A DNA stretch of 64,000 nt from Planctomycetota bacterium. Its GTDB lineage: Bacteria; Planctomycetota; MHYJ01; WSZJ01. Positions 9,538 to 29,054 of the stretch are shown piece after piece. The position numbers were made by a program, and so were the translations under genes. The first letter of the stretch is position 1, and each line of letters begins with the position of its first letter. The stretch lies in the NCBI GenBank assembly GCA_038060895.1, contig JBBTCT010000018.1:26300-90299 (forward strand). The letters are read 5' to 3'. A model generated the notes under the pieces. It ran no database searches and had not been told where the DNA came from. It saw only the letters and a list, made by a program, of their open reading frames with translations.

Positions 9538-9555
9538 TTCCCGGAAACGGTGTTC

Positions 9556-10259: not shown

Positions 10260-10262
10260 GGT

Positions 10263-10691
10263 TTAGGGGCGCTCCCTGATGGCGGACTCGATGAGGTCGA
10301 ACTGCCGCGACAGCAGCTGCGTCAGCGCGGTGTAGAAGGCCGCGTTCTTCGCCATCTTCGCGGCCTCGACTTCTGCAACGACGTCGTTGCCGTCATGTCC
10401 GGGGATGCCCCCCGTGGGGATCGGCGACAGCGTGCGGAGGATGGAGAAATCGCTGCCGGAAGCGAACGCCGGCTGCGCCGGCATGCCGCCGAGCACGACG
10501 GGCTGGGTCGCGCGACCGGCGTCGGTCGCCCTGCGAAGCGCCGCCTGGAACTCATCGACCGGGAGGTCCTGCCCCCGGAATCCCGGCGTGCTCGCATTCG
10601 CGATGTTGTTGAGGATCACTTCATGGCGCTTCCACGAGAAGGCAAGGGCCGACTCGAGGGTGGGAATGGCGCCGGCGCTCGTGACGTCCAT
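10263..10691 (-). CDS. flgB: Flagellar basal-body rod protein FlgB
   Basis: LESALAFSWKRHEVILNNIANASTPGF is the rod-protein N-terminal motif. I chose internal ATG 10691, which is preceded by GAGGAAAC, instead of the track start 10805. Confidence 0.85.
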   Translation of the reverse strand: MDVTSAGAIPTLESALAFSWKRHEVILNNIANASTPGFRGQDLPVDEFQAALRRATDAGRATQPVVLGGMPAQPAFASGSDFSILRTLSPIPTGGIPGHDGNDVVAEVEAAKMAKNAAFYTALTQLLSRQFDLIESAIRERP

Positions 10692-11005
10692 CTTTCCTGT
10701 TTCCTCAACGTGGGCGGTGTCTAGACGGATTCCCGACCCAAAGAAAGCAAACCCGGGGCCGGGGGGGTGGTATTCCTGGACTCGCTTCAACTTCTTTAAG
10801 AACAAGTACTTACAGATGAAGCGTCTGGACTGCCACCCGGCGGGGGTTTCCCTGCTTCTAGTTTCGGCAAGAACCGCCGGCGAAATTTGCCGGAATCCCG
10901 CGGGAAAGGTTCGTCATTCGGCCTCCCATCGAATGCCGAACTCTGCTCGCGAGAGTGGCCGCACTTCGGGGGTCCGAGTCTCACAGGGCTATACTCGCGG
11001 GCCAG

Positions 11006-14000: not shown

Positions 14001-14221
14001 CAGGTGAGCGGATCGGGAGAATCACGAAGAGCGGAAGCGCGATGTACAAAGACGCCGTCGCCCGGGCGCGGGGAGGCCGGAAGCCGGAATCGGTGCTGAA
14101 GTCCCTGGAATCCGCCCTGGAGGCTGGCTTCGATGACGGAAAGCGGGTTGACGGCGAGAAGGCCTTCGATGCCCTGAGAAACGACGACGCCTTCAAAATC
14201 CTGCGCTCCCGCTGCCGGTAG
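11006..14221 (+). CDS. Ser/Thr protein kinase with TM helix and large C-terminal TPR-like region
   Basis: Hanks-kinase motifs are present: GPYRILRELGRGGMGVVYRA, VALKV, HRDVKPANVLM, DFGLAR, GTPAYMSPEQ. A TM helix (ALAAAACVLFAGAGFGGWAAW) is followed by about 600 aa of TPR-like repeats. The start was set at MSDIPR (11006). Confidence 0.9.
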   Translation: MSDIPRTLTTRDRALAELVRLRGWADEAAIQRAIQEASSAAGARDLGAILAASGVLTPNQLRELEAAMDGRPSGAQGSGSSSALDRTVAKSDAGVTIAAASGRKVGDTVGPYRILRELGRGGMGVVYRALQPELRREVALKVMLSGGDESSSDVERFRREAAVVARMGRHPSLVQIHDIGRDGERLYFTMDFIEGRSLKQRIAEEGPLSGREAARIAADLASALAFSHAAGVVHRDVKPANVLMDREERAFLGDFGLARDLSSSVALTQSGAPIGTPAYMSPEQAEGRASRITPLSDVYSLGATLYEMLTGRPPFDGESQMDIIRQVLERDPVPPRSLRPEIHRDLDVICLKAMHKVPARRYESAAALEADLRRFLNNDPILARPPGFGEKLVSRARRHRVALAAAACVLFAGAGFGGWAAWRVKKRDDAESDRARTQRAKQDEYARRQSEVTPLLIEGKDLMTRWDDARKVGDWRGRNRFAAAAIATLTRAAEIFPEGAEVHFQLGMALRRGGWHEKALASLERAVSIDPLHTLAWFEHGDITESRLREVRGSLVRTGIVAIQGSQGFVPTGMNRTLMFRKEAGEGDAPRLLETAKRDFRRTLETGAGAERAAYGRAMLAFYADRFDEALRELDAALAANPYFTDALEARASILEFSTRDMARGIADREAIHRLEPYNPWYTNELALSFQMAGRDKEALALVAEAVLNCDHPDVLTRGASIRFSSGDYDGCLELAKRALATREGSRAGRADAAIYVPYVAMMRREFDAALRGVDELEGDLGPDFAGAMRGEIQMARGDMGASARAFRGITPGSYVEQVESLGAAFAEWWCGNLDRARPLSETAVRMRVLPAAPVIRGIVRMDQGDLAGALGDFETVRRDEPALNVNYSNLAGARFLTGDYTGAITALEEAVSTTLTSPEQKEAVKRFFEPLAKRAGAAKSPAEAAKVVEGIAGLLVLAGAQATDETMRAGVREAQRGVFYILQAFYIHHEMWKEAIGAGERIGRITKSGSAMYKDAVARARGGRKPESVLKSLESALEAGFDDGKRVDGEKAFDALRNDDAFKILRSRCR

Positions 14222-15535
14222 CTAAAGACCCCACTTCTTGATCTTGTCGCGCAACGTGCGCTCTGCAATCTGCAACGCGGCGGAGGTCCGCTGGCGATTG
14301 CCGCCGTGCGATTGGAGCGCCGCCGCGATGGCGCGCTTCTCGATTTCCTCCATGGTCAGTCCTTCGAATGCCGAAACGGGCGCCGGCGATGCGGCCGAGG
14401 CGGACGCCGGCGCGATGAGCCACGGCGCGATATCGGCGGCGCGGATCGTGTCCGCGGCGACGAGGACGCAGGCGCGTTCGAGGATATTGAAGAGCTCGCG
14501 GATGTTGCCGGGCCAGCGGTAGTGACGCAGCGCGTCAACAGCATCGGCCGCCAGTTTTTTCCGGCCGCGCAGGAAGTGTGCGCAGAGCGCCTCCAGGTCG
14601 TCGAGCCGCTCGCGCAGCGGGGATACTTTCACCGGCACGACGTTGAGGCGGAAAAAGAGATCTTCGCGGAAGCGGCCCTTTTCGATTTCAGCGCGCAGAT
14701 CGCGATTCGTGGTCGCGAGGACGCGGACGTCGGCGCGGCGGGCGATCGAGGAGCCGACGCGCTCAAACACGCGCTCCTGCAGGACGCGCAGCAGTTTCGC
14801 CTGGAGGTTCGTGTCAATCTCGGAGACTTCGTCCAGAAGCAGGGTCCCGCCTTCCGCCAGCTCGAAGCGGCCTTTGCGCTGCCGGTCTGCGCCCGTGAAA
14901 GCCCCCTTCTCGTGCCCGAACAGTTCGCTTTCGAGCAGTCCCGCCGACAGAGCGGCGCAATTCACCGCGAGGAACGGCCCCGCCGCGCGCGCCGAATCGG
15001 CGTGGATCGCGCGCGCCACGACTTCCTTCCCCGACCCCGTCTCCCCCAGGATCAGAACCGTCGCTTCCGTCGCCGCGATCCGCTTCAGTTCCTCCCGCAT
15101 CCCCTTCAGCCCCACCAGCGCCGGACGCTCGCCGGCCACCTGCGCCCGCAGCGCCTCGTTTTCGCGCGACAGCCGGCCGTGCTCGAGCGCCCTTTTCGCC
15201 AGCAGCTCGAGTTCCTGCGCCTTGAATGGTTTCTGGATGAAGTGAAAGGCGCCGAGGCGCATGGCCTCCACCGCAGTTTCGATCGTGCCGTAGGCGGTCA
15301 TGACGATGACGGGAATGCCGGGGTGCAGCTTCTGCAACTCCGCCAGCACCTCCAGCCCGCTCATCGGGGCCATCTTGAGGTCGGTGATCGCGAGCTCCGG
15401 CGCCCACCGGCGCGCCTCCTCGATCGCCGCCGGGCCCTCGGAGAACGCCTTCACCTCGTGGCCCCCGCGCGACAGCGCTTCCGTGACCGATTCGCGCATG
15501 ATCGGCGTGTCTTCGATGAGCAGGACGCGGCTCAT
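14222..15535 (-). CDS. Sigma-54-dependent response regulator (REC + AAA+ with GAFTGA + Fis-type HTH), FleR/FlrC/FlbD-like
   Basis: REC domain is [11 protein letters not shown]...[11 protein letters not shown]. Walker A is GETGSGKE, the GAFTGA loop is present ([10 protein letters not shown]), and the C-terminal HTH is [25 protein letters not shown]. True start is ATG 15535, with ATGA overlap onto the kinase stop. The track ORF (to 16111) carries a spurious Arg/Pro-rich extension. Confidence 0.95.
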
Positions 15536-16356
15536 GGGGCCTCCGGAAGGTCGATGGTGAAGACGGCGCCGCCGCCGGCGTGGTTCGCGCCGGCAATGGT
15601 GCCGCCGTGAGCCTCGACGATGCGGTGAGCGATGGCAAGCCCGAGACCGGTGCCGCGCGAGCGCGACGTGTAGAACGGCGTGAACATCTTCGGCAGCGCA
15701 TCCGCCGAAATGCCGGGGCCGTTGTCGCGGAGGGTGATGCGGAGGCGGCCCGCGCTGCGGGAAACGGCGACTTCGATGCGGCCGCCCTCGGGGGCGGCCT
15801 GGGAGGCGTTGACGGCGATGTTGGCGAATACGCGCGTGAGAAGGGAAGGGTCGGCATGGAGAGGGAGGGGGCGGGCGAAGCTGCGGACCACCGAGATCTT
15901 CTTTTCGGCCAGCGCGCGCTCGGCAGCGAGAAGCGCGTCTTCGATCACCTCGGCCAGGTCGCAAGCCCGCCGCTGAGGCTGGATGTCGCGCGCGAAATCG
16001 AGCATGTCCTCGACCAGGCGGTCCAGGCCGCGCATGCCGCGCATCATCTTGTCCAGCGTGACGCGCGCTTCGCCGCCCGCCGGCAGATCCTCCTCGAGGA
16101 TCGAAGCCCACATCTGGATTCCGCCCAGGGGATTGCGGATTTCGTGGGCAAGGCAGGCCGCCATTTCACCGATCAGGGCGAGGCGGTTCTTGCGCGCAAG
16201 TTCCCGGTTCTTCTCCTCGAGCTCGCGCGTGAGCTCCGCGACGCGCGATTGAAGCGCGTCGTGAGAACCCTTGAGGCGCTCGGACGTCTCGTTGAAGGAG
16301 CGCATGAGCTCCATCAACGCGGCAACATCGGGTTTCTCGGTCAGTTTGTCCGGCAT
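15532..16356 (-). CDS. Cytoplasmic sensor histidine kinase (coiled coil + HisKA + HATPase_c)
   Basis: H-box is [18 protein letters not shown] boxes are [17 protein letters not shown] and [18 protein letters not shown]. There is no TM segment. Confidence 0.9.
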
Positions 16357-16359
16357 TCT

Positions 16360-16812
16360 CTACTCCGCCCGATCCACAAACCTCGGCGCCGCAGGAGCCA
16401 CGTTCCGGCCATATGCCGCCGCCGCCCGCTTTCCCTCCGCCGCCGCTCGCATCTCCTCCGACACCGTCCCTCGCGCCGCCTCCGCCATGCGCCGCGCTTC
16501 TTCCTCGCTCTTCATCACCGCTTCCAGCACCTTCGCCGTCGCTTCCAGCTCGGCCTCCACCGGCGCCGCCTCGTCGCGAGACAGGCCCCCCCGGATCGCT
16601 TCCCATTCCTCCCGCAACCCCGGCGCCGCCGCGGCCAGCCGCTCCAGCTCGCCCATGACCGCCCGCTTGCGCTCCACCATCTCCGCGAGCCCCGCGGCGT
16701 CCCCGGCAATCAGCGCCCCCTGCTCGCGCGCCAGCTCCGCCAGCCGCTCGTACCACGCGCGCCTCGCCTTCAGGCTCTCCGCCAGCTTCGCCGCCCGCGC
16801 CGCAAAATTCAT
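16360..16812 (-). CDS. Helical protein, weakly FlgN-like (flagellar chaperone family?)
   Basis: The real start is likely MNFAARAAKLAESL at 16812, with ATGA overlap onto the upstream TPR gene stop. It is 150 aa and all-helical, and the pattern ...YERLAELAREQGALIAGDAAGLAEMVERKRAVMGELERL resembles FlgN. The assignment is weak. Confidence 0.35.
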   Translation of the reverse strand: MNFAARAAKLAESLKARRAWYERLAELAREQGALIAGDAAGLAEMVERKRAVMGELERLAAAAPGLREEWEAIRGGLSRDEAAPVEAELEATAKVLEAVMKSEEEARRMAEAARGTVSEEMRAAAEGKRAAAAYGRNVAPAAPRFVDRAE

Positions 16813-19756: not shown

Positions 19757-21682
19757 CTAGACCCTTACTTCCAGATCGTCTCCTGAAGCCAGCTCCACCC
19801 CGCTCAGCGCCGGCTCCACTTCCTCGAGCAGGAACAGATCCACCTGCTCCGGGGCGCGCCCGACGTACCGCTTTGCATCCAGCAACTCCGCGCCCTTCCC
19901 CTTGAGCACGGCGAACGCCGGGTCCGCCGCGAGCCGCTCGAACAAGTCGTTCGGCTTGCCTTCTTCGCGGACTTTCGCGAAGGCCGCCACTGAGGCCTCG
20001 CGGATTTTCTCGTGAAGCTGCTGCCGGTCGCCGCCCGCCTTGACCGCCGCCATCAGGAGGTCCTCCGTCGCGAGGAACGGAAGCTCCTGTCGCAGATAGT
20101 TGTCGATCACCTTCGGGTAGACGACCAGCCCCTCGGCCACGCTGATCACGAGATTGAGAATCGCATCAGCGCCGAGGAACGCCTCCGGCACGCTCAGCCG
20201 CTTGTTCGCCGAATCGTCGAGCGTCCGCTCAAACCACTGCGCCGCCGCCGTGAGCGGCATGTTCGCTTCCAGCGAAATCACAAACCGCGCCAGCCCCGCG
20301 ATCCGCTCGCTCTTCGCGGGGTTCTGCTTGTACGCCATCGCGCTGGACCCGACCTGCCCTTTCCCGAACGGCTCCTGAAGCTCGCCGCGCGACTGCGCCA
20401 GACGCACGTCGTTTGAAAATTTCGCCGCACTCTGCGCGATCCCGGACAGCGCCGCCATCACCTGCGCGTCCACCTTGCGCGTGTACGTCTGCCCTGTGAC
20501 CCGGAACGCGCTCTTGAACCCCATCTTCTTGGTCAGCCGCCGATCCAGGTCCTCCACTTTCTCCTTGTCCCCTTCGAACAGCGCCAGGAACGACGCCTGC
20601 GTCCCAATCGCTCCCTTCACGCCCAGGAACCGAAGCGAGTCCCTCCGCGCGATCAGCTCCTTGAGGTCGATGAGCAGGTCCTGCAGCCACAGGCAAGCGC
20701 GCCGCCCCACCGTCGTCACCTGCGCGGGCTGAAAGTGCGTGAAACCGAGGCAGGGAGTGTTCTTCCACTTCGCCGCAAAGTCCGCGAGCGCCCGGCATGC
20801 CCTCGCCACCTTCGGAATCAGCAGCCCCAGCGCTTCCCGCATCACGATCAGGTCCGTGTTGTCCACCACGAACATGCTCGTCGCGCCCAGGTGGATGATC
20901 CCCGCCGCGCCCGGCGCCTGCTCGCCGTAATGGCGGATGTGCGCCATCACGTCGTGCCGCGTCTCGCGTTCGATCTCCGAAGCCCGGCTCGCGTCCACAC
21001 GGTCGCGCGCCGACTTCAGCTCGCCGATCTGCGTCTCCGTGATCGGCAGTCCCAGCTCCTTCTCCGCCTCCGCCAGCGCAATCCAAAGGTCGCGCCACGT
21101 CGTAAACCGCTTCCTGTCCCCGAAGAGCTCGATCATCCTCCGCCCCGCATACCGCTGAGTCAGCGGGTTCACCCAGTCCGTCGCCGTCCCTCCCGGGGTG
21201 ACGTTGCGCGGCACCGCGGGAAGGGGAGTGAGCGGCCGCGATGACGACGGCCGCACCCCACGACGTACTTCGGCCTTGTCGTAATCCTGCGGCCCGTTTG
21301 CAGGCGCCACGGGCGGCGGCCGGTCCTTCCTGCGGAACGAACGCGTCGCTTCGTCCCGGCTCTTGTACCGCTTCAGGAAATCGTTCAGCCCCAGCGTGTC
21401 GAACTGCGCCTGGACCCGCGTCCCAACCTGCACCAGCGCGACCGACCCGCCCGCCGTTTCGTTCTCGTCCGTAAACGTCACGAGCATCGCAATCCCTACG
21501 CTCGCCACGAAATCCACCGCTTCCATGTCGATCACGAAATCCCGCATCCCGCCGCGCCTCAGGTTTTCCAGCGCTTCCTGCAGAAGCGGAGTCCCCGACT
21601 GGTCGATTTTCCCGCGGAGCACGATGAGCCGCGCGTTCGAGTCCTCCGGGAGCCTCGAGACGGCGATATCGAGCTCGCTCAC
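19757..21682 (-). CDS. purB: STAS (anti-sigma-antagonist-like) domain fused in frame to adenylosuccinate lyase
   Basis: Residues 1 to about 115 (LIVLRGKIDQSGTPLLQEALE...DFVIDMEAVDFVASVGIAMLV...VALVQVGTRVQAQFDTLGLNDFL) form a SpoIIAA/STAS pattern, paralogous to the STAS domain at 28032. A Pro-rich linker follows. Residues from about 170 to 641 are an ADSL-type fumarate-lyase fold with NPLTQRYAGRRMIELF and the signature GSSAMAYKQNP. There is no stop between the two parts. Confidence 0.85.
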   Translation of the reverse strand: MSELDIAVSRLPEDSNARLIVLRGKIDQSGTPLLQEALENLRRGGMRDFVIDMEAVDFVASVGIAMLVTFTDENETAGGSVALVQVGTRVQAQFDTLGLNDFLKRYKSRDEATRSFRRKDRPPPVAPANGPQDYDKAEVRRGVRPSSSRPLTPLPAVPRNVTPGGTATDWVNPLTQRYAGRRMIELFGDRKRFTTWRDLWIALAEAEKELGLPITETQIGELKSARDRVDASRASEIERETRHDVMAHIRHYGEQAPGAAGIIHLGATSMFVVDNTDLIVMREALGLLIPKVARACRALADFAAKWKNTPCLGFTHFQPAQVTTVGRRACLWLQDLLIDLKELIARRDSLRFLGVKGAIGTQASFLALFEGDKEKVEDLDRRLTKKMGFKSAFRVTGQTYTRKVDAQVMAALSGIAQSAAKFSNDVRLAQSRGELQEPFGKGQVGSSAMAYKQNPAKSERIAGLARFVISLEANMPLTAAAQWFERTLDDSANKRLSVPEAFLGADAILNLVISVAEGLVVYPKVIDNYLRQELPFLATEDLLMAAVKAGGDRQQLHEKIREASVAAFAKVREEGKPNDLFERLAADPAFAVLKGKGAELLDAKRYVGRAPEQVDLFLLEEVEPALSGVELASGDDLEVRV

Positions 21683-22098
21683 TGGATCGTCGCCTTCTGC
21701 GCCGGCAGCCAGAGCGCAATCGCGACGTAGACCCCGAGGACAAGCAGGAGCAGAGTCGAAACGAGCCAGACGCGGGTCAGGCGCCGCGGCATCACGAGTT
21801 CGGCGAGGACGAACGCGCCGAGAGGCAGGAAGAGCAGCGCGCCCAGCTGCGCTACGGCGCCGAAGAGCGGCTTCGAAAATGCCGGAATCACGCTTCCGCC
21901 GATTTCAAGGCGCGACGCCAGCGCATTGACGTGATAGACGCTCCAGCCCGCAAGCGTTCCGTAGAGAAGAAGGGTCAGCCCGAGGTACGAATAGTGAACC
22001 GCCGGTTCCGCGCGATCGTTCCCGGTCTGCGGCGTCGCCCCCGGCAGCCCCGCCGGAGTCGGATTCGCCTGTCCCGCCGGCATTGTCTCGTCAGTCAC
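21679..22098 (-). CDS. Hypothetical integral membrane protein (3-4 TM)
   Basis: Hydrophobic helices include YLGLTLLLYGTLAGWSVY, LGALLFLPLGAFVLAEL and LVSTLLLLVLGVYVAIALWL. The GTG 22098 start follows GGGGAGG. It overlaps the purB-fusion start by 4 nt. Confidence 0.5.
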   Translation of the reverse strand: MTDETMPAGQANPTPAGLPGATPQTGNDRAEPAVHYSYLGLTLLLYGTLAGWSVYHVNALASRLEIGGSVIPAFSKPLFGAVAQLGALLFLPLGAFVLAELVMPRRLTRVWLVSTLLLLVLGVYVAIALWLPAQKATIQ

Positions 22099-22369
22099 GC
22101 GGCCTCCCCGCTCCTGCTTCCTCGAGCATCCGGGCAAAACGCGCGGGTTCCATCCGGAACTTGCACGCCAGCTGACCGTCGATGAAGGCCTGCGGCACCG
22201 ACTCCGCGTACTCCGCCGCCAGCGCCGCATCTTCCAGCACGTTGACCACCTCGACCTCGAACCCGTACCACATCAGGAACGCCTCGGCCGCCCCCTTCAT
22301 CTCGTCACAAAGAGGGCAGCCGGGTCGTGAGAGGATCTTGACGCGGACGTCAGTGCTTGGGGAACTCAA
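22091..22369 (-). CDS. Glutaredoxin-like small thioredoxin-fold protein (CPLC motif)
   Basis: VKILSRPGCPLCDEMK...VNVLED...YAESVPQAFIDG is a Grx-like/DUF836-like pattern. The start is uncertain; I used TTG 22369, which follows AAGGAGAACGAGG. The track start 22441 overlaps the upstream gene. Confidence 0.55.
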   Translation of the reverse strand: MSSPSTDVRVKILSRPGCPLCDEMKGAAEAFLMWYGFEVEVVNVLEDAALAAEYAESVPQAFIDGQLACKFRMEPARFARMLEEAGAGRPRD

Positions 22370-23213
22370 ACTTCGCCTCGTTCTCCTTCCACCACGCCTT
22401 CCACTTGTCCGCCACCGCCCAGCGGTCTTCCTTCCCCGCATACATCTTGTAACCCATGTCGAACCCCGTTCCCCACTTCAGCCCCTCGATCGCCATCATC
22501 CGGATCTCGGGAACCTCGCTGTACAGGAAGTCGATCAGTGACTTCACGCCGTCGCGACACTCCGCTCTCGTCAGCGCATCGGCCAGCATCACCCTCCATG
22601 CTTCCGTGCCTTCGTTGGAGTGCTTGAGAAGCGCCTGCCGGGTCGCGTCGTGCGGATCCCACGCGGACATGATCTTCAGCAACTCGCCGCGAACGCTTCC
22701 GTCGCTGAGATACGGCTCCAGGATGGGTGCGGCCTCCGCCGGCTTCGATTTCGTGAGAACCAGGATCGCGTTCGGCCGGGAGGGTGACTGAAGCTTGCGG
22801 ACGAGGAGGACGAGGTAGGGAAGCAGCTTGTCCGAAGGAAGGGCCAGTCCTTCCTCGATGGCCTTTTCGGGCTTCAGCTCATGAAGCGCCTTGAGGTACG
22901 CGTCGATATTGGCGCGGACCACGGGGTCCATCGGGGTGCCGGCGAGCGCGCTTTCGAGATCATCTCCGCTCAGCGGACGAGAGGGGGGCGAGAGCGCGTC
23001 CACCTTCCGCTGCAGCACGGTCATAAGCTGGTTGAGGGCGCGGACATCCCGTTCGAGTTCCGCGACGTGCTTGATCATCTCGCGCACGGTGTTGTCGGAA
23101 GCGGCCTGCCGCTCCGCGACGTTGTCCAACCCCACGGAAACCTTTTCGACGTCGCCGGGCGTCGCACAACCCGCTGCGGCAACGGCAAAGAGCAAGGCAG
23201 AGAACTTCTTCAC
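22350..23213 (-). CDS. Lipoprotein with coiled coil and HEAT-like C-terminal repeats
   Basis: The GTG 23213 start lies 6 nt after GGAGGA. The signal peptide plus lipobox is KKFSALLFAVAAAGC. The remainder is helical, with HEAT-like LIDFLYSEVPEIRMMAIEGL. Confidence 0.6.
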   Translation of the reverse strand: MKKFSALLFAVAAAGCATPGDVEKVSVGLDNVAERQAASDNTVREMIKHVAELERDVRALNQLMTVLQRKVDALSPPSRPLSGDDLESALAGTPMDPVVRANIDAYLKALHELKPEKAIEEGLALPSDKLLPYLVLLVRKLQSPSRPNAILVLTKSKPAEAAPILEPYLSDGSVRGELLKIMSAWDPHDATRQALLKHSNEGTEAWRVMLADALTRAECRDGVKSLIDFLYSEVPEIRMMAIEGLKWGTGFDMGYKMYAGKEDRWAVADKWKAWWKENEAKFEFPKH

Positions 23214-23640: not shown

Positions 23641-24705
23641 TCACCACTTGATCGCGACTTCGCGCTTGCCCCGCTTGACGGTGCCTACGATGGCGGCGGT
23701 CTCGCCGGATTCCTGCAGCCGGCGGACGACGGCCTTCGCGTAGTACGGATCGACGATCATGACCAGTCCCAGGCCCATGTTGAAGACGCGGACCATTTCG
23801 TCGTCCGGGATGCCGCCCTTCTCCTGCAGGAAGCTGAAAATGCGCGGGACGGGGATTTCGCCGATCTTGATTTCGACGTCCACGTCCGGAGGAATCACGC
23901 GCGGGACATTTTCCACGATCCCGCCGCCCGTGATGTGAGCGATTGCTTTCACCACCTTCTTTGTCCGGTAGGGCGCAAGCACGTGTTTCATGGACCGGAC
24001 GTAAATCCGGGTCGGCGTCAGCAGTTCCTCGCCGAGCGTGCCGCGGAGCCCTTCGATCCGGTCCTCGAGCTTCAACCCCGCTTTTTCGAGAAGGACCTTG
24101 CGCACGAGGGTGAAGCCGTTCGAGTGAAGCCCGCTCGACCCGACGCCGATCACCGCGTCGCCGACGCAGACCGATTTCCCGTCGATGATCCGGTCGCGTT
24201 CCACGATTCCCGTGCAGAATCCGCCCATCTCGTATTCGCCTGTCCCATAGTCGTCAGGGTGCTGCGCCGTCTCGCCGCCGAGCAGAACACAGTCCGACAA
24301 TTCGCAGCCGCGAACCAGGCCCTTCACCACGTCCAGCATCAGCGCCTCGTCCATTGGCCCGACGGCAATGTAGTCGAGGAAGAACAGCGGCTCGGCACCG
24401 GAGACGATGAGGTCGTTCACGCTCATGGCGACCAGGTCGATCCCGACCGTGTCGTGCTTCCCGGTGGCCTGCGCGATCTTCAGTTTCGTTCCGACTCCGT
24501 CCGCGCAACCGACCAGGACGGGGTCCTTGTATTGCTTCTTGAAGAGGTTCGCGGGGCCGTTCAGGGCGAAGAAGCCGGCGTACCCCCAGTCGTTCTGGAT
24601 GACGCGCGGGTTGTAAGTGCGGCGCATGAGGCCGAAGAGTTTGTCGATGAAGCGGTCTTTGGCGACCGTATCGACGCCGGCGTCCTTGTAGGTCATGCGC
24701 GCCAT
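23641..24705 (-). CDS. purM: Phosphoribosylformylglycinamidine cyclo-ligase (AIR synthetase) PurM
   Basis: 354 aa. The motifs YKDAGVDTVAKDRFIDKL..., DGVGTKLKIA and SNGFTLVRKV give a typical PurM layout. Confidence 0.95.
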   Translation of the reverse strand: MARMTYKDAGVDTVAKDRFIDKLFGLMRRTYNPRVIQNDWGYAGFFALNGPANLFKKQYKDPVLVGCADGVGTKLKIAQATGKHDTVGIDLVAMSVNDLIVSGAEPLFFLDYIAVGPMDEALMLDVVKGLVRGCELSDCVLLGGETAQHPDDYGTGEYEMGGFCTGIVERDRIIDGKSVCVGDAVIGVGSSGLHSNGFTLVRKVLLEKAGLKLEDRIEGLRGTLGEELLTPTRIYVRSMKHVLAPYRTKKVVKAIAHITGGGIVENVPRVIPPDVDVEIKIGEIPVPRIFSFLQEKGGIPDDEMVRVFNMGLGLVMIVDPYYAKAVVRRLQESGETAAIVGTVKRGKREVAIKW

Positions 24706-24755: not shown

Positions 24756-24838
24756 AGGTAGTTGGTAGGAGGTAGGGGGTAGTAAAGACGCGCGTGCCCA
24801 AAGTGCCGTAACTACCCCCTACCCACTACCCCCTGCCC
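24756..24838. repeat. IR6: inverted repeat with (GGTAGG)n-like arm and complementary C-rich arm
   Basis: Left arm 24756-24783 is aggtagttggtaggaggtagggggtagt. The reverse complement of right arm 24811-24838 is gggcagggggtagtgggtagggggtagt. The inner 13 bp are perfect and about 22/28 match overall. It lies between purF and purM. Confidence 0.85.
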
Positions 24839-26262
24839 TAGCATTTCTGCTGTTCGTGCTGCAACTTCTCGAATTTCTCATTCACCGGGACGCGGTAACT
24901 CCCGCTGTAGCAGGCGGTGCAGTAGTGATCCTTCGGGCTCGACACCGCGCCCAGAAGTCCCTCAAGCGAGAGGTATCCCAGCGAGTCGAGGTCGAGATGC
25001 CGCCGGATCTCCTCGACATTCATGCGCGCGGCGATCAGTTCCTCCGGATTTGGGAAGTCGATCCCATAGAAACACGGATGGGCGATCGGCGGGCAGGAGA
25101 TGCGCATGTGGACCTCCTTCGCTCCCGCCTGCCGCAGCATCTTGACGCGGCCGCGGCTGGTCGTGCCGCGGATGATCGAGTCATCGACGACCACAACGCG
25201 CTTCCCGCGCACGACCTCGGCGATCACGTTGAGCTTGAGCCCGACCCCCGAGATGCGCGCTCCCTGTGTCGGGGCGATGAAGGTGCGCCCGATGTAATGG
25301 TTGCGGACGAAGCCGTGGTCGAGCGGGATTCCCGACGCATGCGAGAAGCCGAGCGCCGCGTCGTTCCCGCTGTCGGGGATCGGCACCACGATGTCTCCCT
25401 GCGCGGGATGCTCCTTCGCCAGCGCCCGCCCGAGATTCATGCGCACCCCGTGCACGTTGTCGCCGAAAACACGCGAGTCCGGGCGCGCAAAGTAGACGTG
25501 CTCGAAGATGCAGTGCGCAGGCGTCTCGGGCTTTTCGTGGAAAAAGAACGAACGCTCGCCCTTCGAGGAAAACTCCACCACCTCTCCCGCCTTGACGTCC
25601 CGCACGTACTTCGCGCCCACGATGTCCAGCGCGCACGTTTCGCTCGCCACCACCGGCACGCCGTCCAGCTCCCCGATGCACAGCGGACGGAACGCGTGCC
25701 GGTCCCGGATCGCGTAGAGCCGGTCCTTCGAGAGGATGAGAAGCGAAAACGCGCCGCGAAGCTGCCGGAGCGCGCGGATCATCCTCTCGTCCTCCGATCC
25801 GTCCCAGGGCTGCGCCAGCAGGTGCATGATCGTCTCGCTGTCGGTCGAAGTCTGGAAAATCGACCCGCGCGACTCAAACTCACGGCGAAGCTGCCCGCTG
25901 TTCACGAGGTTCCCGTTGTGCGCGATCGCGAGCGGACCCGCGGCGTAGTTAAAGAGAAGCGGCTGCGCGTTCTGGATCGTGCTCGACCCCGTCGTGCTGT
26001 AGCGGACGTGCCCGATGGCGACCGGATTGCGCAGCGAAGCGAGGACTTCATCCGTAAAAATGTCGCCGACCTGTCCCATTTCCCGGTGCGCCAGGAGATT
26101 TCCGCCGCTCGTCGAGCAGATCCCCGCGCTTTCCTGTCCGCGATGCTGAAGCGAGTAAAGCCCGTAGTACGTCTTGTGCACCGCTTCCGGGTGCCCGTAG
26201 ATCCCGAAGAGCCCGCAGAATTCCCGCGGCCCTTCACCCGTCGCGTCGCGTTCGTCGCTCAT
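24838..26262 (-). CDS. purF: Amidophosphoribosyltransferase PurF
   Basis: The N-terminal nucleophile context CGLFGIYGH, YSLQHRGQESAGI, a PRTase motif (VVVVDDSIIRGTT) and C-terminal Cys residues for an Fe-S cluster are all present. The start was set at MSDERD (26262) to avoid overlapping the upstream gene. Confidence 0.95.
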   Translation of the reverse strand: MSDERDATGEGPREFCGLFGIYGHPEAVHKTYYGLYSLQHRGQESAGICSTSGGNLLAHREMGQVGDIFTDEVLASLRNPVAIGHVRYSTTGSSTIQNAQPLLFNYAAGPLAIAHNGNLVNSGQLRREFESRGSIFQTSTDSETIMHLLAQPWDGSEDERMIRALRQLRGAFSLLILSKDRLYAIRDRHAFRPLCIGELDGVPVVASETCALDIVGAKYVRDVKAGEVVEFSSKGERSFFFHEKPETPAHCIFEHVYFARPDSRVFGDNVHGVRMNLGRALAKEHPAQGDIVVPIPDSGNDAALGFSHASGIPLDHGFVRNHYIGRTFIAPTQGARISGVGLKLNVIAEVVRGKRVVVVDDSIIRGTTSRGRVKMLRQAGAKEVHMRISCPPIAHPCFYGIDFPNPEELIAARMNVEEIRRHLDLDSLGYLSLEGLLGAVSSPKDHYCTACYSGSYRVPVNEKFEKLQHEQQKC

Positions 26263-26309
26263 GATCCCCCAGTAGATCGACTTTCCGACTTCGTTGCAAA
26301 TCTGCCGCT

Positions 26310-26837
26310 TCAGGCGTCTTTCAGTTCCCTGGCTACTTCGGCTTCCCATTTCCTCCACGGGTCGAGGACGAGCGACTTCCTGAAGTGTTTTCTTGCGAGC
26401 CGGGGCATTCCCTCGCGCTTATAGGTCATTCCGATGTGGAAATGGGCGTCGGGGTCGTCGCGGTCGAGTTTGAGGACGGAGCGCAGCTTGATGCGTGCGC
26501 GCGGGTATTCGCCGCGGAGGTAATAGCCGAACGCGCTGAGGAATCGTTCGCGTTTTCGCTCGTCGAGCGCCCTCCTGCGCCGCCAGACGAGGATGCGAAG
26601 GAGGTCGAGGGTGGCATAGAGCCAGATGACGCCGGCTGCGACAGCGCAGCCGCGGGCGTCGACCCGGGTTCCGAGGGCGCCCAGGACCGGCGAAACTGCC
26701 GTGGCGTTGGCGAAGAACGTGAACCACACGAAGAACCAGAGGCCGCGGCCGATCCGGCCCAGGACGACATGGCCGACACCGGGGAGAACGAATCCCAGGC
26801 AGGCGGCGAGCTTGGTGGTTCTGGAAAAATCAGGCAT
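26310..26837 (-). CDS. Membrane protein with C-terminal TPR-like module
   Basis: 175 aa. TM helices include LAACLGFVLPGVGHVVL, LWFFVWFTFFANA and AVAAGVIWLYATLDLL. A TPR-like stretch follows (YYLRGEYPRARIKLRSVLKLDRDDPDAHFHIGMTYKREG). Confidence 0.55.
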   Translation of the reverse strand: MPDFSRTTKLAACLGFVLPGVGHVVLGRIGRGLWFFVWFTFFANATAVSPVLGALGTRVDARGCAVAAGVIWLYATLDLLRILVWRRRRALDERKRERFLSAFGYYLRGEYPRARIKLRSVLKLDRDDPDAHFHIGMTYKREGMPRLARKHFRKSLVLDPWRKWEAEVARELKDA

Positions 26838-26862: not shown

Positions 26863-27621
26863 TTACTTCGACATGCGCATGGCGGGGATCGGGTCCGAGC
26901 CCGTGTACTGGCGCTCCCAGGACCGGATGTGGTCGATGCGAAGGGCTCGCTCCGCGACCTGGTAGTCCTCGCCCGTGATCGGAACGGCCTTCATCGGGGG
27001 GGTCACTCCCTGGCCGTTTTTCTTCGAAGGCGCCCAATCCTCCGTAAACAGCAGCGAGATGCGGTCGGTCGGCGCAAGCGCCGCGGTTCTCCCGGGAGGC
27101 GCCGTGTAGCGCTTTGTGTTGCCCGTGCTTCGGACCAGTTCCGGCGGCGCGTCGCCGACGGGAGCGGCCACTTCAACTCCCGCGCCGGTGGAAAGCCCGT
27201 AGTACTTCTTGAGCGCGTCCTGGACTTCCGCCTCAGGCGCGACCACGACCTTGACCTTCAGCCCGGTCGATTTCCTCACGTCCACCACGGCCGCGCGATT
27301 GAAGAAATTCGCCTTGGCAATGAACACGATCCCCGCGGCTTTCTCGACCGGTACGATTTCGTGCTTTTCCGCCAGTTCCTTCGAGACGCAGGCGATCACG
27401 TCCGCCGCGATGTTCAGCGAAGCGATCGATACGTGGGGAATCTGGTATGTGGCTGCCAGAAACCGGGCCAGCTCGCCCCGTGCGGGAGCGCCGGCGCCAA
27501 CCAGCGCGGCCAGGATGGGGGAGCCTTTACGCTCTTCCCCTGCGCGCGCAATGTCTTCAGCAAGAACGGCGCCTTCCTCGATCAGGATCTCGCCGACACG
27601 CTGAAGGTCTTCACCGGCCAT
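26863..27621 (-). CDS. Stand-alone T2SS-E N-terminal (GspE_N/MshEN-like) domain protein
   Basis: RVGEILIEEGAVLAEDIARA...IPHVSIASLNIAADVIACVSKELAEKHEIVPVEKAAGIVFIAKAN is the GSPII_E_N pattern. No ATPase domain follows; the C-terminal roughly 110 aa is unknown. The start was set at ATG 27621, after GGAGAA. Confidence 0.65.
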   Translation of the reverse strand: MAGEDLQRVGEILIEEGAVLAEDIARAGEERKGSPILAALVGAGAPARGELARFLAATYQIPHVSIASLNIAADVIACVSKELAEKHEIVPVEKAAGIVFIAKANFFNRAAVVDVRKSTGLKVKVVVAPEAEVQDALKKYYGLSTGAGVEVAAPVGDAPPELVRSTGNTKRYTAPPGRTAALAPTDRISLLFTEDWAPSKKNGQGVTPPMKAVPITGEDYQVAERALRIDHIRSWERQYTGSDPIPAMRMSK

Positions 27622-27764
27622 GTGCTTCTCCGGGAGTGGGTTCGTGGAGAGCCTGATTATAAGGGGAAGCGAGCGGACCTTCCAATTCAAATCGAAGTTC
27701 AACCCGCCAGCAGGGCCCCGCCAGGCCCTGAATCTCTCTCGCCTCGGAAGTCATTGTCCTTCTG

Positions 27765-27881
27765 AAGTTTGCGAGTACGCGGGGTGTGGATCGCGGGGGC
27801 GCAGGGGAGCCGGGCCGGAGCCGTTCCCGGCCCGTGCGACCCGGAGCCCCCGCGATCCACACCCCGCGTACTCGCAAACTT
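27765..27881. repeat. IR7: long inverted repeat (about 54-nt arms, 36 bp perfect outer stem)
   Basis: Both the left arm and the reverse complement of the right arm begin aagtttgcgagtacgcggggtgtggatcgcgggggc. The inner part is imperfect. It lies in a divergent intergenic region. Confidence 0.95.
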
Positions 27882-28031
27882 GACCGGCCCCTCCCGCCGC
27901 TGCTAGCATTTCCCGAGCGTCGTGCCGAGCCGCGCCCGGGGCGGAGGTGAACGGCAGACGCAGACCGGGCGGGGCGCGCCCCCTTCCCGGCCGACAGGCC
28001 TGCTCCCTGGCGTCCGACAACTGGAGGATGC

Positions 28032-29054
28032 ATGCCGGATCTCACCTGGGACGTTCAGAAAGTCAATCAGCAGGCCGCCGTCATCATTCTGTCCGGCTCC
28101 ATCGATGCCAAGACGGTCCCGTCCTTCCAGGAACAGATGAACAAGGTCAAGGATGACGGGGTCATCAAGTTCGTCCTCGACATGGAAGCCATCAAGTACG
28201 TGAACTCGACGGGCCTCGGGTTCCTCGTCAACCTCGCCGATTCGCTCGACCCGCGCGGCGGCGGCATCGCCCTCGTCAAGCTCCACCCGAAGGTCAAAGT
28301 CGTTTTCGACATGCTCGGGCTCAATGCGTTCTTCAAGATCTTCGGCAGCCGCAACGACGCCGTCGCTTCCATGACGGGCGCGGGCAAGAAAGAAACCGTG
28401 GAGTCCGCCCCTGCCCCCGTCGCCACTGCAACCGCGCCGCTGCCCCCGTCACAGCCGCAACCCGCCACGCTGGCGCGCGGAACAACGCAGTCCTTCGCCC
28501 CCGTCCCCCAGGGCGAGGAAGTCGCCGTCTCCGGGCAGCAGCTCGAGTGCGCTTCCTGCAAGGCCACCCTCCTCGTTCCCGAGCCCGGCAACTACAAGTG
28601 CCCCCGCTGCAGCGCGATCTTCACCTATACGCGCGACGGCAAGGCCAACTTCCTCCCGCGCCGCCGCCTCACCCCGATCCAGATGACCCTGACCTGCTCG
28701 CCCGAGTGCACCGAGGGACTCGTGACAATGGCGGGGCTGCTCGCAAAGCGCGCCGGGTTCAACGACGGCCTGGCGAAATCCATGGAAGCGAGCGTCCGGG
28801 AATCCGCTTCCACGATCTGCGACAAGGCGTACGGTTCGAACGAGCAGGCGACGTACCAGGTGCTGATGGTTGCGAGCGACAACGAGGTGTCGATCAAGTT
28901 CAGCGACTACGGCAAGAAGATCGAAGCGGACATGCGCGACGCGAGCGGGAAGTCGGTGTTCACCGTGACGCGGCAGTCGATGGACGTGTTCGACCTGAAG
29001 GCGCATCCGAAGGGCGGGAACATCCTGACCTTGAGCAAGAGAGCGAGCGCTTAA
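28032..29054 (+). CDS. STAS domain + CxxC..CxxC zinc ribbon + degenerate RsbW/SpoIIAB-like (HATPase_c_2-like) domain protein
   Basis: The N-terminus (AAVIILSGSIDAKTVPSFQEQM...KFVLDMEAIKYVNSTGLGFLVNL...IALVKLHPKVKVVFDMLGLNAFF) is a STAS domain. A Pro/Ala linker follows. ECASCKATLLVPEPGNYKCPRCSAIF is a zinc ribbon. The C-terminal roughly 130 aa has the spacing of anti-sigma kinases (SVRESASTICDKAY...VSIKFSDYGKKIE...GGNILTLSK) but lacks clear N and G boxes. Confidence 0.7.
   Translation: MPDLTWDVQKVNQQAAVIILSGSIDAKTVPSFQEQMNKVKDDGVIKFVLDMEAIKYVNSTGLGFLVNLADSLDPRGGGIALVKLHPKVKVVFDMLGLNAFFKIFGSRNDAVASMTGAGKKETVESAPAPVATATAPLPPSQPQPATLARGTTQSFAPVPQGEEVAVSGQQLECASCKATLLVPEPGNYKCPRCSAIFTYTRDGKANFLPRRRLTPIQMTLTCSPECTEGLVTMAGLLAKRAGFNDGLAKSMEASVRESASTICDKAYGSNEQATYQVLMVASDNEVSIKFSDYGKKIEADMRDASGKSVFTVTRQSMDVFDLKAHPKGGNILTLSKRASA

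What the first reader, a model, noticed from the sequence alone, without database searches (positions are those of the whole stretch)
19757..21682. STAS (anti-sigma antagonist-type) domain fused in frame to adenylosuccinate lyase, in an operon with a Grx-like CPLC protein
A roughly 115-aa STAS domain and a roughly 55-aa Pro-rich linker precede a complete ADSL-type PurB (signature GSSAMAYKQNP), with no intervening stop. STAS domains normally act in partner-switching cascades or as regulatory domains of transporters. I am not aware of a STAS::PurB architecture.

- The gene is translationally coupled to a membrane protein (21679-22098), a glutaredoxin-like CPLC protein (22091-22369) and a lipoprotein (22350-23213).
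- purM and purF lie just downstream.
- A second STAS protein, with an RsbW-like domain, is encoded at 28032-29054.

This suggests post-translational control or localisation of a purine-biosynthesis step by a partner-switch-like module.
Basis: partly seen in the sequence, partly recalled or inferred. Interest (0 to 1): 0.65.

Follow-up and report, generated by a model that had tools for sequence, protein, structure and literature searches.

The report
STAS domain fused to adenylosuccinate lyase
A group of uncultured groundwater Planctomycetota makes its purine-pathway enzyme adenylosuccinate lyase with a signalling (STAS) domain tethered to the front by a floppy linker, a real, inherited and undescribed fusion that probably puts the enzyme under phosphorylation or partner-binding control.

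Summary
ORF 19757-21682 (minus strand, 641 aa) encodes three parts:
- a STAS domain (aa 12-112, Pfam E 4e-13);
- a disordered Pro-rich linker (aa ~116-169);
- a complete, human-type adenylosuccinate lyase, above the TIGR00928 cutoff, with its catalytic motifs intact.

It is not an assembly or stop-codon artefact. The same fused ORF, with the same GTG start, occurs in at least 9 distinct sequences from independent assemblies of one Planctomycetota clade. A metatranscriptome also holds the STAS-coding part.

The STAS is ancestral to the clade and under purifying selection (dN/dS 0.18-0.48, against 0.05-0.11 for PurB). The Ser aligned to SpoIIAA Ser58 is invariant. Two lineages removed the domain by in-frame deletion, so it is accessory.

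Its closest relatives are the N-terminal STAS domains of a planctomycete family built as STAS, zinc ribbon and RsbW-like domain. One member lies 6.3 kb away, transcribed divergently.

No other STAS-PurB fusion was found, and I found no paper describing one. A STAS-glycosyltransferase fusion controlled by a phospho-switch (Anabaena All4160) is a published precedent for the kind.

Verdict: a real new variant of a known kind. The mechanism is inferred: a tethered, phospho-Ser61-dependent partner-binding handle on PurB.

The parts
19757..21682 (-). STAS-linker-PurB fusion gene, 641 aa, GTG start overlapping the stop of the upstream membrane-protein gene (GTGA)
   Evidence: orthologous fused ORFs
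21338..21682 (-). STAS domain (aa 1-115; Pfam match aa 12-112); AF2 pLDDT about 87-92
21500..21502 (-). Codon of Ser61. It aligns with the phospho-acceptor Ser58 of SpoIIAA and its counterpart in RsbV, lies at the N-terminus of helix 2, and is invariant in all 7 fused orthologs that cover it.
21176..21337 (-). Pro-rich linker (aa 116-169), predicted disordered (pLDDT below 50 for aa 122-167). Its length varies widely between orthologs (about 40 to about 190 aa).
21218..21271 (-). Conserved short motif EVRRGVRPSSSRPLTPLP inside the linker, present in the inner clade of fused orthologs
19757..21175 (-). Adenylosuccinate lyase part (aa 170-641), human-ADSL type (phmmer E 4.5e-165 to 5NX8/2J91). 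Catalytic motifs: RHDVMAH aa 242, GATS aa 266, THFQPAQ aa 315, GSSAMAYKQNP aa 445.
21679..22098 (-). 139-aa membrane protein with no family match; its stop overlaps the fusion gene's start
22091..22369 (-). Glutaredoxin-like CPLC protein (Glrx-like/DUF836, E 1e-11)
22350..23213 (-). 287-aa putative lipoprotein with a weak HEAT-repeat match
23641..24705 (-). purM (AIRS/AIRS_C), upstream in the same orientation
24838..26358 (-). purF (amidophosphoribosyltransferase; GATase_6/7), upstream; overlaps the end of the TPR gene 26310-26837
28032..29054 (+). Divergently transcribed 340-aa protein: STAS (paralog of the PurB STAS, 39% identity), disordered linker, 4-Cys zinc ribbon, and a SpoIIAB/RsbW-fold domain without kinase motifs. 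Candidate partner, not shown to interact.

Best explanation
**Shown**
- This is a genuine, vertically inherited gene fusion in one clade of uncultured, mostly groundwater or sediment Planctomycetota.
- The product is a bead-on-a-string protein: a SpoIIAA-type STAS domain, a roughly 50-aa disordered Pro-rich tether (up to about 190 aa in relatives), and a catalytically intact ADSL-type PurB.
- The gene is the last one in a purF-purM-lipoprotein-Grx-membrane-purB gene string.
- The STAS module most resembles the N-terminal STAS of the planctomycete STAS/zinc-ribbon/RsbW-like family. It probably arose by duplication from that family, one member of which lies 6.3 kb away.
- The module was present in the clade's ancestor and was later deleted in frame at least twice.

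**Inferred**
- The STAS is a tethered regulatory handle, not a rigid allosteric domain.
- Unphosphorylated, it binds an RsbW-type (HATPase_c_2 fold) partner. Phosphorylation of the invariant Ser61, by a kinase encoded elsewhere and reversed by a PP2C phosphatase, releases it.
- PurB is a homotetramer in characterised homologs (established knowledge), so four handles per enzyme would allow sequestration, clustering or ball-and-chain occlusion.
- The effect would be to tune AMP/AICAR production after translation, analogous to Anabaena All4160, where phosphorylation of an N-terminal STAS switches off the fused glycosyltransferase.
- RsbW-type kinases respond to adenine-nucleotide levels (established knowledge for RsbW/SpoIIAB). 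Such a switch would therefore form a feedback from ATP supply onto a purine-synthesis step.
For: **The fusion is real and expressed**
- Domains and thresholds.
- The fused ORF with the same GTG start occurs in the window, L004, L005 and L006, and in P0002, P0003, P0388, P0389, P0391 and P0392.
- P0006/L009 and P0007 are cut inside the STAS by contig ends.
- P0242/L084 and L010 are two halves of the gene from one MAG, broken in the linker.
- Contigs from independent runs and a metatranscriptome match with 0 differences.

**The STAS is ancestral and constrained**
- NJ tree of the PurB core: the clade has 100% bootstrap support, fused forms are basal, and STAS-less L008 and L007 are nested inside (93% and 74%).
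- dN/dS is 0.18-0.48 for the STAS against 0.05-0.11 for PurB. GC3 is uniform at 0.85/0.80/0.87.

**Structure and the serine**
- Ser61 aligns to SpoIIAA Ser58 and is invariant while its neighbours vary. In the AF2 model it sits at the N-terminus of helix 2.
- The model gives STAS pLDDT about 90, linker aa 122-167 below 50, and a well-folded PurB.

**Relatives and precedent**
- The STAS is 39% identical, without gaps, to the STAS of the 340-aa neighbour.
- The nearest non-fusion STAS domains among 1.84 billion representatives are N-terminal STAS domains fused to HATPase_c_2, a membrane domain, or HEAT plus cyclase.
- The neighbour's C-terminal domain has the SpoIIAB/RsbW fold (E 2e-8, TMt 0.78-0.87).
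- Precedent: the STAS-glycosyltransferase All4160 is phosphorylated on the conserved STAS Ser by RsbW-like kinases in vitro. Genetics indicate that phosphorylation inactivates it and that the SpoIIE-type phosphatase HenR reactivates it (PMC13555669).
- No riboswitch was detected in the operon, so there is no sign of RNA-level purine control there.
Against: - No kinase, phosphatase or binding partner is identified. The window holds no PP2C/SpoIIE and no HATPase_c_2 domain with intact kinase motifs.
- The STAS scores below NCBIfam's anti-anti-sigma cutoff (48.8 against 53.45).
- The residues around Ser61 drift: A/S/C before it, V/S/A/T after it, and Gly63 replaced by Ala in L005/P0002.
- The STAS evolves 3-5 times faster than PurB, and two lineages deleted it without touching the operon. 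Any control is therefore non-essential.
- A serine at the N-cap of helix 2 could be conserved for structural reasons alone.
- No experiment exists on any member.
Confidence: 0.45

Rival explanations
1. Ligand-sensor reading. The STAS binds a small molecule itself, either a purine nucleotide (GTP/ATP) or an anion. It modulates PurB by docking on it or releasing from it, with no kinase or partner protein involved.
For: Some STAS domains bind nucleotides. The pendrin STAS is reported as a nucleotide-binding protein (PMC5613929, listed). From my own knowledge, SpoIIAA and the Rv1739c STAS also bind GTP/ATP. A purine-nucleotide sensor on a purine enzyme makes metabolic sense. No kinase or phosphatase lies nearby.
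Against: No nucleotide-binding motif was identified. The 50-190-aa disordered, length-variable linker is a poor transmitter of allostery. The closest STAS relatives belong to the partner-switch type, fused to RsbW-like domains. The invariant Ser61 is not explained.
Confidence: 0.13
2. Reverse-flow reading. PurB is the scaffold or sensor and the STAS is the output. The PurB tetramer displays four STAS domains. These titrate an RsbW-like partner, for example the 340-aa protein's own RsbW-like domain or an anti-sigma factor, and so couple purine status or PurB abundance to gene expression such as the adjacent sigma54/flagellar genes.
For: The STAS paralog with an RsbW-fold domain is transcribed divergently from the same intergenic region. 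A sigma54 regulator, a histidine kinase, a FlgN-like gene and a flagellar cluster lie immediately downstream. Sensor-STAS fusions such as RsbR and YtvA are known (own knowledge; YtvA also in PMC10949197).
Against: The 340-aa family is widespread in Planctomycetota that have unfused purB. It is retained in L007, which lost the PurB STAS. The floppy linker makes it unlikely that the substrate state of PurB reaches the STAS. In known sensor-STAS proteins the STAS is C-terminal and tightly linked.
Confidence: 0.15
3. Nearly neutral passenger. A duplicated STAS-plus-linker segment landed in frame at the 5' end of purB. It is tolerated because the long linker keeps it out of the way, and it has no function of its own.
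For: It was lost twice by clean in-frame deletion with the operon unchanged. Constraint is relaxed: aa identity is 55-86% against 90-95% for PurB, and dN/dS is up to 0.48. The linker is as variable as the STAS.
Against: The ORF has stayed intact across the whole clade, down to lineages with only 73-80% PurB identity. dN/dS is clearly below 1 in all six comparisons over the full-length STAS. About 30 STAS positions are invariant, including Ser61 and the FDxLGLNxF motif. AF2 folds the domain confidently. A useless 170-aa extension on a highly expressed enzyme would be expected to decay faster.
Confidence: 0.2
4. Artefact. The ORF is really two genes (a STAS gene and purB) joined by a sequencing or assembly error, a missed stop or a frameshift. 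Alternatively, PurB is made only from an internal start.
For: The window comes from a metagenome-assembled genome. The GC-rich, low-complexity linker is where one other MAG's assembly breaks.
Against: The continuous frame is the same in at least 9 distinct sequences from NCBI, JGI, ENA and Logan assemblies. Contigs of independent runs agree with 0 indels. The only in-frame start-type codon at the junction (Val171, GTG) is not conserved. The STAS-less lineages still use the same upstream GTG. An additional internal initiation product cannot be excluded from sequence alone.
Confidence: 0.02

Closest known systems
Anabaena sp. PCC 7120 All4160 (and All2285, Synechocystis XssP): N-terminal STAS fused to a bacterial sugar transferase, controlled by a partner-switching-like phospho-switch (PMC13555669; architecture also noted in PMC8256260)
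   Same: An N-terminal SpoIIAA-type STAS domain with the conserved Ser, fused in one polypeptide to a biosynthetic enzyme. The fusion is restricted to one lineage. The output is an enzyme, not a sigma factor.
   Different: The enzyme here is a soluble central-metabolism lyase (PurB), not a membrane glycosyltransferase. The phylum differs. The STAS domains appear to have been recruited independently: this one's nearest relatives are planctomycete. No cognate kinase or phosphatase is identified here, and nothing has been tested experimentally.
Adenylosuccinate lyase PurB/ADSL, human-type subfamily (PDB 2J91, 5NX8; TIGR00928)
   Same: aa 170-641 align end to end with human ADSL (phmmer E 4.5e-165). 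The match is above the purB equivalog cutoff. The fumarate-lyase signature and the catalytic His and Ser motifs are present.
   Different: It carries a 169-aa N-terminal STAS-plus-linker extension. No other PurB among the best 120 hits or the 80 genome loci has one.
SpoIIAA / RsbV anti-sigma-factor antagonists (PDB 1AUZ, 1TH8_B, 6M36_B)
   Same: Same fold and length. The Ser aligned to the phospho-acceptor is present.
   Different: It is not a stand-alone protein. It scores below the TIGR00377 cutoff. The DSSG/DSTG motif has degenerated to (A/S/C)-S-(V/S/A/T)-(G/A). No adjacent anti-sigma kinase, sigma factor or PP2C gene is present.
Planctomycete STAS / zinc-ribbon / HATPase_c_2-like family (the 340-aa protein at 28032-29054). 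Comparable single-chain partner-switch proteins, such as M. tuberculosis Rv1364c, are known to me from memory only.
   Same: It is the source-like family of the PurB STAS: 35-39% identity, gap-free, same N-terminal position, followed by a Pro/Ala-rich disordered linker.
   Different: Its C-terminal module is an RsbW/SpoIIAB-fold domain instead of an enzyme. Its STAS keeps the canonical N-S-T-G motif nearly invariant.
SLC26/SulP transporters with a C-terminal STAS domain
   Same: A STAS domain fused to a non-regulatory functional module.
   Different: There the STAS is C-terminal, attached to a membrane transporter, and of a different STAS subtype. No transporter domain is present here.

Membership tests
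Adenylosuccinate lyase (PurB, TIGR00928; fumarate-lyase superfamily) | Lyase_1 plus ADSL_C domains, and a score above the equivalog cutoff | tested here: met
   Pfam Lyase_1 E 1.3e-20 and ADSL_C E 4.5e-19. TIGR00928 scores 378 bits against a cutoff of 326.
Adenylosuccinate lyase (PurB, TIGR00928; fumarate-lyase superfamily) | Fumarate-lyase signature GSxxMxxKxN, and the catalytic His (THxQPAQ) and Ser loop conserved | tested here: met
   GSSAMAYKQNP at aa 445, THFQPAQ at aa 315, RHDVMAH at aa 242. All are invariant columns in a 38-sequence alignment.
Adenylosuccinate lyase (PurB, TIGR00928; fumarate-lyase superfamily) | Cleaves SAICAR and adenylosuccinate; is the only or housekeeping purB of the genome | not testable with these tools
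   There is no enzyme assay, and the rest of the genome could not be searched. Indirect support: the gene sits next to purF and purM, and dN/dS is 0.05-0.11.
SpoIIAA/RsbV-type anti-sigma-factor antagonist (phosphorylatable STAS) | STAS fold | tested here: met
   PF01740 scores 49.4 bits against a cutoff of 22.6. PDB sequence hits are 4HYL, 4QTP, 1AUZ and 6M36_B. The AF2 secondary structure is the beta-alpha STAS pattern with pLDDT about 90.
SpoIIAA/RsbV-type anti-sigma-factor antagonist (phosphorylatable STAS) | Conserved phospho-acceptor Ser/Thr at the start of helix 2 | tested here: met
   Ser61 aligns with SpoIIAA Ser58 and with the serine of the RsbV DSTG motif. It is invariant in 7 of 7 fused orthologs that cover it.
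SpoIIAA/RsbV-type anti-sigma-factor antagonist (phosphorylatable STAS) | Score above the NCBIfam anti-anti-sigma model cutoff (TIGR00377) | tested here: not met
   48.8 bits against a cutoff of 53.45. The neighbouring 340-aa protein passes with 69.6 bits.
SpoIIAA/RsbV-type anti-sigma-factor antagonist (phosphorylatable STAS) | A cognate RsbW/SpoIIAB-type kinase/anti-sigma factor and a PP2C phosphatase that act on it | tested here: inconclusive
   The only HATPase_c_2-fold domain in the window is the C-terminus of the 340-aa protein. It lacks the N-box Asn and the G2/ATP-lid. No SpoIIE/PP2C is present in the window.
STAS-enzyme fusions under a partner-switching-like phospho-switch (All4160 type) | An N-terminal STAS with the conserved Ser, fused in frame to a catalytic domain | tested here: met
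STAS-enzyme fusions under a partner-switching-like phospho-switch (All4160 type) | The catalytic domain is a bacterial sugar transferase (Bac_transf); cyanobacterial lineage | tested here: not met
   The catalytic domain is Lyase_1/ADSL_C and the organism is a planctomycete. This is analogous to that family, not a member of it.
STAS-enzyme fusions under a partner-switching-like phospho-switch (All4160 type) | Phosphorylation of the STAS Ser changes enzyme function | not testable with these tools
   Needs biochemistry or genetics.
SLC26/SulP transporter STAS | A STAS domain C-terminal to a Sulfate_transp membrane domain | tested here: not met
   There is no transporter domain, and the STAS is N-terminal.

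The most novel reading that the evidence does not exclude
A partner-switching (STAS/RsbW-type) signalling network in Planctomycetota directly controls a core purine-biosynthesis enzyme after translation. The ATP-dependent phosphorylation state of Ser61 decides whether the PurB tetramer is free or held through four tethered STAS handles. The holder would be an RsbW-fold protein such as the divergently encoded STAS/zinc-ribbon/pseudokinase protein. This would close a feedback loop between adenine-nucleotide charge and AMP/AICAR synthesis, and possibly couple it to the adjacent sigma54/flagellar programme.
Probability: 0.2. Interest if true: 0.75.

Novelty: new variant of a known kind. Interest (0 to 1): 0.5.

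Why it matters
Partner-switching modules are textbook regulators of sigma factors. Only recently has one been shown to act directly on a fused enzyme, the glycosyltransferase All4160. A STAS fused to adenylosuccinate lyase would extend that principle to central nucleotide metabolism, where bacterial control is normally explained by PurR, riboswitches and feedback inhibition of PurF.

Natural STAS-deleted relatives in the same gene context amount to a ready-made comparative experiment. The finding also points to a promiscuous planctomycete STAS-plus-linker cassette, fused to RsbW-like, cyclase, membrane and now lyase modules. That cassette may be a general way these bacteria wire proteins into a signalling network.

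It also flags that public annotation ('adenylosuccinate lyase') hides the extra domain.

Tried and rejected
- **Word-index search, STAS alone.** It returned nothing, not even the protein itself, so it was uninformative. I replaced it with the exhaustive HMMER search.
- **Looking for other STAS-PurB architectures.** Among the best 150 STAS relatives, every long protein with an N-terminal STAS that I scanned carried another module or none recognisable: HATPase_c_2, Cons_hypoth698, HEAT plus Guanylate_cyc, or tandem STAS. This cannot exclude independent fusions built on unrelated STAS domains.
- **Second, unfused purB.** I could not check this.
- **Consensus promoter and terminator scan.** Terminator hits are at background level. 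The two promoter-like sites in the 27622-28031 spacer are only suggestive.
- **Rfam scan.** It found tRNAs only, with no purine or ZTP riboswitch.
- **AF2 model of the 340-aa protein.** Both domains fold well, but pTM is 0.47, so nothing can be said about intramolecular docking of STAS on the RsbW-like domain. Multimer prediction of the PurB STAS with that domain was not possible with the tools.
- **Internal-start hypothesis.** Rejected, because Val171/GTG is not conserved and the STAS-less orthologs keep the upstream GTG.
- **Foreign-insertion hypothesis.** Rejected, because GC3 is uniform across STAS, linker and PurB.
- **First NJ/bootstrap script.** It timed out. I reran it with a faster distance calculation.
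Full report
**1. Observation**

The ORF at 19757-21682 lies on the minus strand. It starts with GTG and encodes 641 aa without interruption.
- Pfam places a STAS domain at aa 12-112 (E 4.3e-13, more than twice the gathering score), Lyase_1 at aa 199-468 and ADSL_C at aa 535-615.
- NCBIfam's purB equivalog TIGR00928 matches aa 174-615 with 378 bits, above its 326-bit cutoff.
- The fumarate-lyase signature GSSAMAYKQNP (aa 445-455) and the motifs RHDVMAH, GATS and THFQPAQ are present. They fall in invariant columns of a 38-sequence PurB alignment.
- The lyase part is of the human-ADSL type, with phmmer E 4.5e-165 to 5NX8/2J91, against about 1e-43 for the Bacillus and Staphylococcus enzymes and 1e-31 for the Thermotoga enzyme.

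Two details need correcting. The gene string is on the minus strand, so purF (24838-26358) and purM (23641-24705) are upstream of the fusion gene in the direction of transcription. The 'internal GTG' is just the Val171 codon.

**2. Not an artefact**

- The exact protein occurs on four contigs. The window is contig CAZAMR010000011.1 of the MAG GCA_964486315.1.
- Logan contigs of two groundwater runs cover 20568-22500 and 20963-22500 with no mismatch or indel. A run from another study covers 21126-21463.
- A 2018 aquifer metatranscriptome yields contigs 21250-21486 and 21457-21808. The second runs from the STAS, across the start codon, into the upstream membrane-protein gene. DNA carry-over into that library cannot be excluded.
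- Orthologs tell the same story. The same uninterrupted STAS-linker-PurB frame occurs in species-representative MAGs L004 (91% identity), L005 (83%) and L006 (81%).
- It also occurs in the metagenome proteins P0002, P0003, P0388, P0389, P0391 and P0392 from NCBI, JGI, ENA and Logan.
- In these loci the frame opens with a GTG that overlaps or abuts the end of the upstream gene.
- P0006/L009 and P0007 begin inside the STAS only because their contigs end there.
- In MAG GCA_013360825.1 the gene is split between two contigs, in the GC-rich linker. L084 ends after the STAS in the same synteny, and L010 starts in the linker and continues as PurB.
- Val171 is T or A in other orthologs, so there is no conserved internal start.

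**3. Evolution**

- All members share a conserved block: NicO-like permease, the 340-aa STAS protein (opposite strand), an MshEN-domain protein, a TPR protein, purF, purM, lipoprotein, Grx-like protein, membrane protein, (STAS-)purB, MerR, and a 772-aa TPR protein.
- None of the other 73 purB loci has a STAS or these neighbours within 8 kb. That set includes eight from other Planctomycetota.
- An NJ tree of the PurB core gives the clade 100% bootstrap support. The fused L009, P0007 and L010 are basal.
- Two lineages lack the STAS.
  - L007 keeps the same GTG and a remnant of the STAS tail and linker (VKARLKNRKRATKPAMTTGAEP...).
  - L008 keeps the GTG and about 15 linker residues.
  - Both are nested among fused forms (93% and 74% support).
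  - Each deletion is seen again in a slightly different sequence from an independent assembly: P0390 against P0004, and P0005 against L008.
- The fusion is therefore ancestral, and it was lost at least twice by in-frame deletion.
- Nei-Gojobori dN/dS is 0.18-0.48 for the STAS, 0.19-0.61 for the linker and 0.05-0.11 for PurB in the six comparisons between full-length fused genes. The STAS is translated and constrained, but far less so than the enzyme.
- GC3 is uniform across the three parts.

**4. Anatomy**

- AlphaFold2, with 38 aligned sequences of which only five cover the STAS, folds the STAS confidently (pLDDT about 87-92).
- It leaves aa 122-167 disordered (pLDDT below 50) and folds PurB well (mean pLDDT 84.7, pTM 0.71).
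- Linker length ranges from about 40 to about 190 aa among orthologs. The inner clade shares a short motif, EVRRxxRPSxSRPLTPLP.
- Ser61 aligns with the phospho-acceptor Ser58 of SpoIIAA and with the serine of the RsbV DSTG motif.
- Ser61 starts helix 2 in the model. It is invariant in all seven fused STAS domains that cover it, while the flanking residues vary.

**5. Origin and relatives of the STAS**

- An exhaustive HMMER search of 1.84 billion cluster representatives with aa 1-124 found only the fusion cluster itself and the partial P0242 at E below 1e-30, apart from a triple-STAS protein.
- The next relatives, at 35-39% identity, are N-terminal STAS domains of 320-390-aa planctomycete proteins.
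- Longer proteins with the same kind of N-terminal STAS carry HATPase_c_2, a Cons_hypoth698 membrane domain, or HEAT plus adenylate/guanylate cyclase.
- The member encoded at 28032-29054 is 39% identical to the PurB STAS over 103 aa without a gap.
- That gene is transcribed divergently from the pur string. Sigma70-like hexamers occur on both strands of the 27622-28031 spacer, which is suggestive only.
- Its family is widespread: 352 hits, with 43-50% identity over the full length.
- The family's build is a STAS with a nearly invariant N-S-T-G, a Pro/Ala linker, a four-Cys zinc ribbon, and a C-terminal domain that in some members reaches PF13581 (HATPase_c_2).
- The AF2 model (pLDDT 84) matches SpoIIAA with the N-terminal domain (TMt 0.88). 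The C-terminal domain matches SpoIIAB, RsbW and UsfX (E 2e-8, TMt 0.78-0.87).
- The alignment shows that the N-box Asn is usually replaced, the second G1 glycine is absent, and the ATP-lid/G2 segment present in the true kinase-like member P0346 is missing. This domain is probably a binder, not a kinase.
- It is retained in L007, which lost the PurB STAS.

**6. Mechanism**

*Shown:* a tethered STAS on an intact PurB. It is ancestral, constrained, expressed at least as RNA, and dispensable in two lineages.

*Inferred:*
- The long, disordered, length-variable linker argues against rigid allostery and for a handle that recruits, sequesters or occludes.
- The partner-switch ancestry of the STAS and the invariant Ser61 point to phosphorylation-dependent binding to an RsbW-fold partner.
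- PurB tetramers would display four such handles.
- The published case of Anabaena All4160 shows that this logic exists. There an N-terminal STAS is phosphorylated on the conserved Ser by RsbW-like kinases in vitro. Genetics indicate that phosphorylation inactivates the enzyme and that the SpoIIE-type phosphatase HenR reactivates it. The authors note that such STAS-transferase fusions are lineage-specific (PMC13555669; architecture also noted in PMC8256260).
- I give this reading about 0.45.

*Rivals:*
- A direct nucleotide or anion sensor (0.13).
- Reverse information flow, with PurB as a multivalent STAS scaffold acting on the RsbW-like neighbour or an anti-sigma factor (0.15).
- A nearly neutral passenger (0.2).
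- An artefact (0.02).

*Against the favoured model:*
- No kinase or PP2C is encoded in the window.
- The STAS scores below the TIGR00377 cutoff.
- The motif around Ser61 drifts.
- The domain has been lost twice.

**7. Novelty**

- I found no other STAS-PurB fusion and no relevant paper.
- Public records of fused orthologs are named only 'adenylosuccinate lyase' (KAF0243752.1, MCE9581228.1).
- STAS-enzyme fusions with a phospho-switch are now a known kind, so this is a new variant of that kind and not a new category.
- Interest is moderate (0.5). It would rise if a kinase/phosphatase pair co-varies with the fusion, or if Ser61 status changes ADSL behaviour.

**8. Limits**

- I could not inspect the rest of any genome, so a second purB, kinases and phosphatases remain unchecked.
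- I could not query domain-architecture databases.
- I could not run multimer predictions.
- Taxonomy below phylum is uncertain. The records are labelled Planctomycetota, Planctomycetia or 'Candidatus Brocadiia'.

Noticed in passing
window 28032-29054 (+): This 340-aa protein is a single-chain partner-switch pair: a SpoIIAA-like STAS, a disordered linker (aa 118-167), a 4-Cys zinc ribbon (C173, C176, C190, C193) and a SpoIIAB/RsbW/UsfX-fold domain. That last domain lacks the N-box Asn and the ATP-lid/G2 box, so it is probably a pseudokinase. It belongs to a large, uncharacterised planctomycete family annotated only as 'anti-anti-sigma factor'.
   Followed up: yes
window 21218-21271 (-), aa 138-155 of the fusion protein: A conserved short linear motif, EVRRxxRPSxSRPLTPLP, lies inside the otherwise variable disordered linker. 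AF2 draws a low-confidence beta-strand at aa 138-141. It could be a docking or phosphorylation site (TP).
   Followed up: partly
window 4299-10805 (-) and 14222-16800 (-): A flagellar gene cluster (fliJ, fliI, fliH, fliG, fliF, flgC, flgB) lies here. In the direction of transcription it follows a FlgN-like gene, a HisKA/HATPase_c histidine kinase and a sigma54-dependent response regulator. The block lies directly downstream of STAS-purB, MerR and a 772-aa TPR protein.
   Followed up: partly
window 10955-14221 (+): A large Hanks-type Ser/Thr protein kinase with TPR repeats (about 1071-1088 aa), opposite in orientation to the surrounding genes.
   Followed up: no
window 34828-47276: Probable integrated mobile element. 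tRNA-Thr (34828-34900) is followed by a tyrosine integrase (34965-36122, minus strand), several ORFs with no family match and lower GC3, and a DUF3987 protein (41887-44946). It ends near tRNA-Tyr and tRNA-Gly (47102-47276). Attachment repeats were not searched for.
   Followed up: no
window 26863-27702 (-) and 26310-26837 (-): An MshEN-domain protein (a possible c-di-GMP-binding module) and a small TPR/DUF6677-like membrane protein head the purF-purM gene string. purF overlaps the TPR gene by about 40-50 nt. A 10/12 sigma70-like promoter match lies at 27685-27656.
   Followed up: partly
window 29120-30862 (-): A NicO-family metal permease with a long His/Asp-rich loop (HGHSHGDDHLHGLVHAHDHGHDHAHSHDHDHGHGHTHDH) and an N-terminal extracytoplasmic domain. 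It is conserved in synteny next to the 340-aa STAS gene.
   Followed up: no
P0241 (508 aa), P0306/P0315, P0308/P0386: The same STAS subtype also occurs as a triple tandem STAS protein, and fused N-terminally to a Cons_hypoth698 membrane domain or to HEAT repeats plus an adenylate/guanylate cyclase. This suggests a promiscuous STAS-plus-linker cassette.
   Followed up: partly
L084 (JABWAY010000087.1) end and L010 (JABWAY010000471.1) start: In MAG GCA_013360825.1 the STAS-purB gene is broken between two contigs, within the GC-rich linker. GenBank therefore lists a 'partial STAS domain-containing protein' (NUN48692.1) while the PurB part lies on the other contig.
   Followed up: yes
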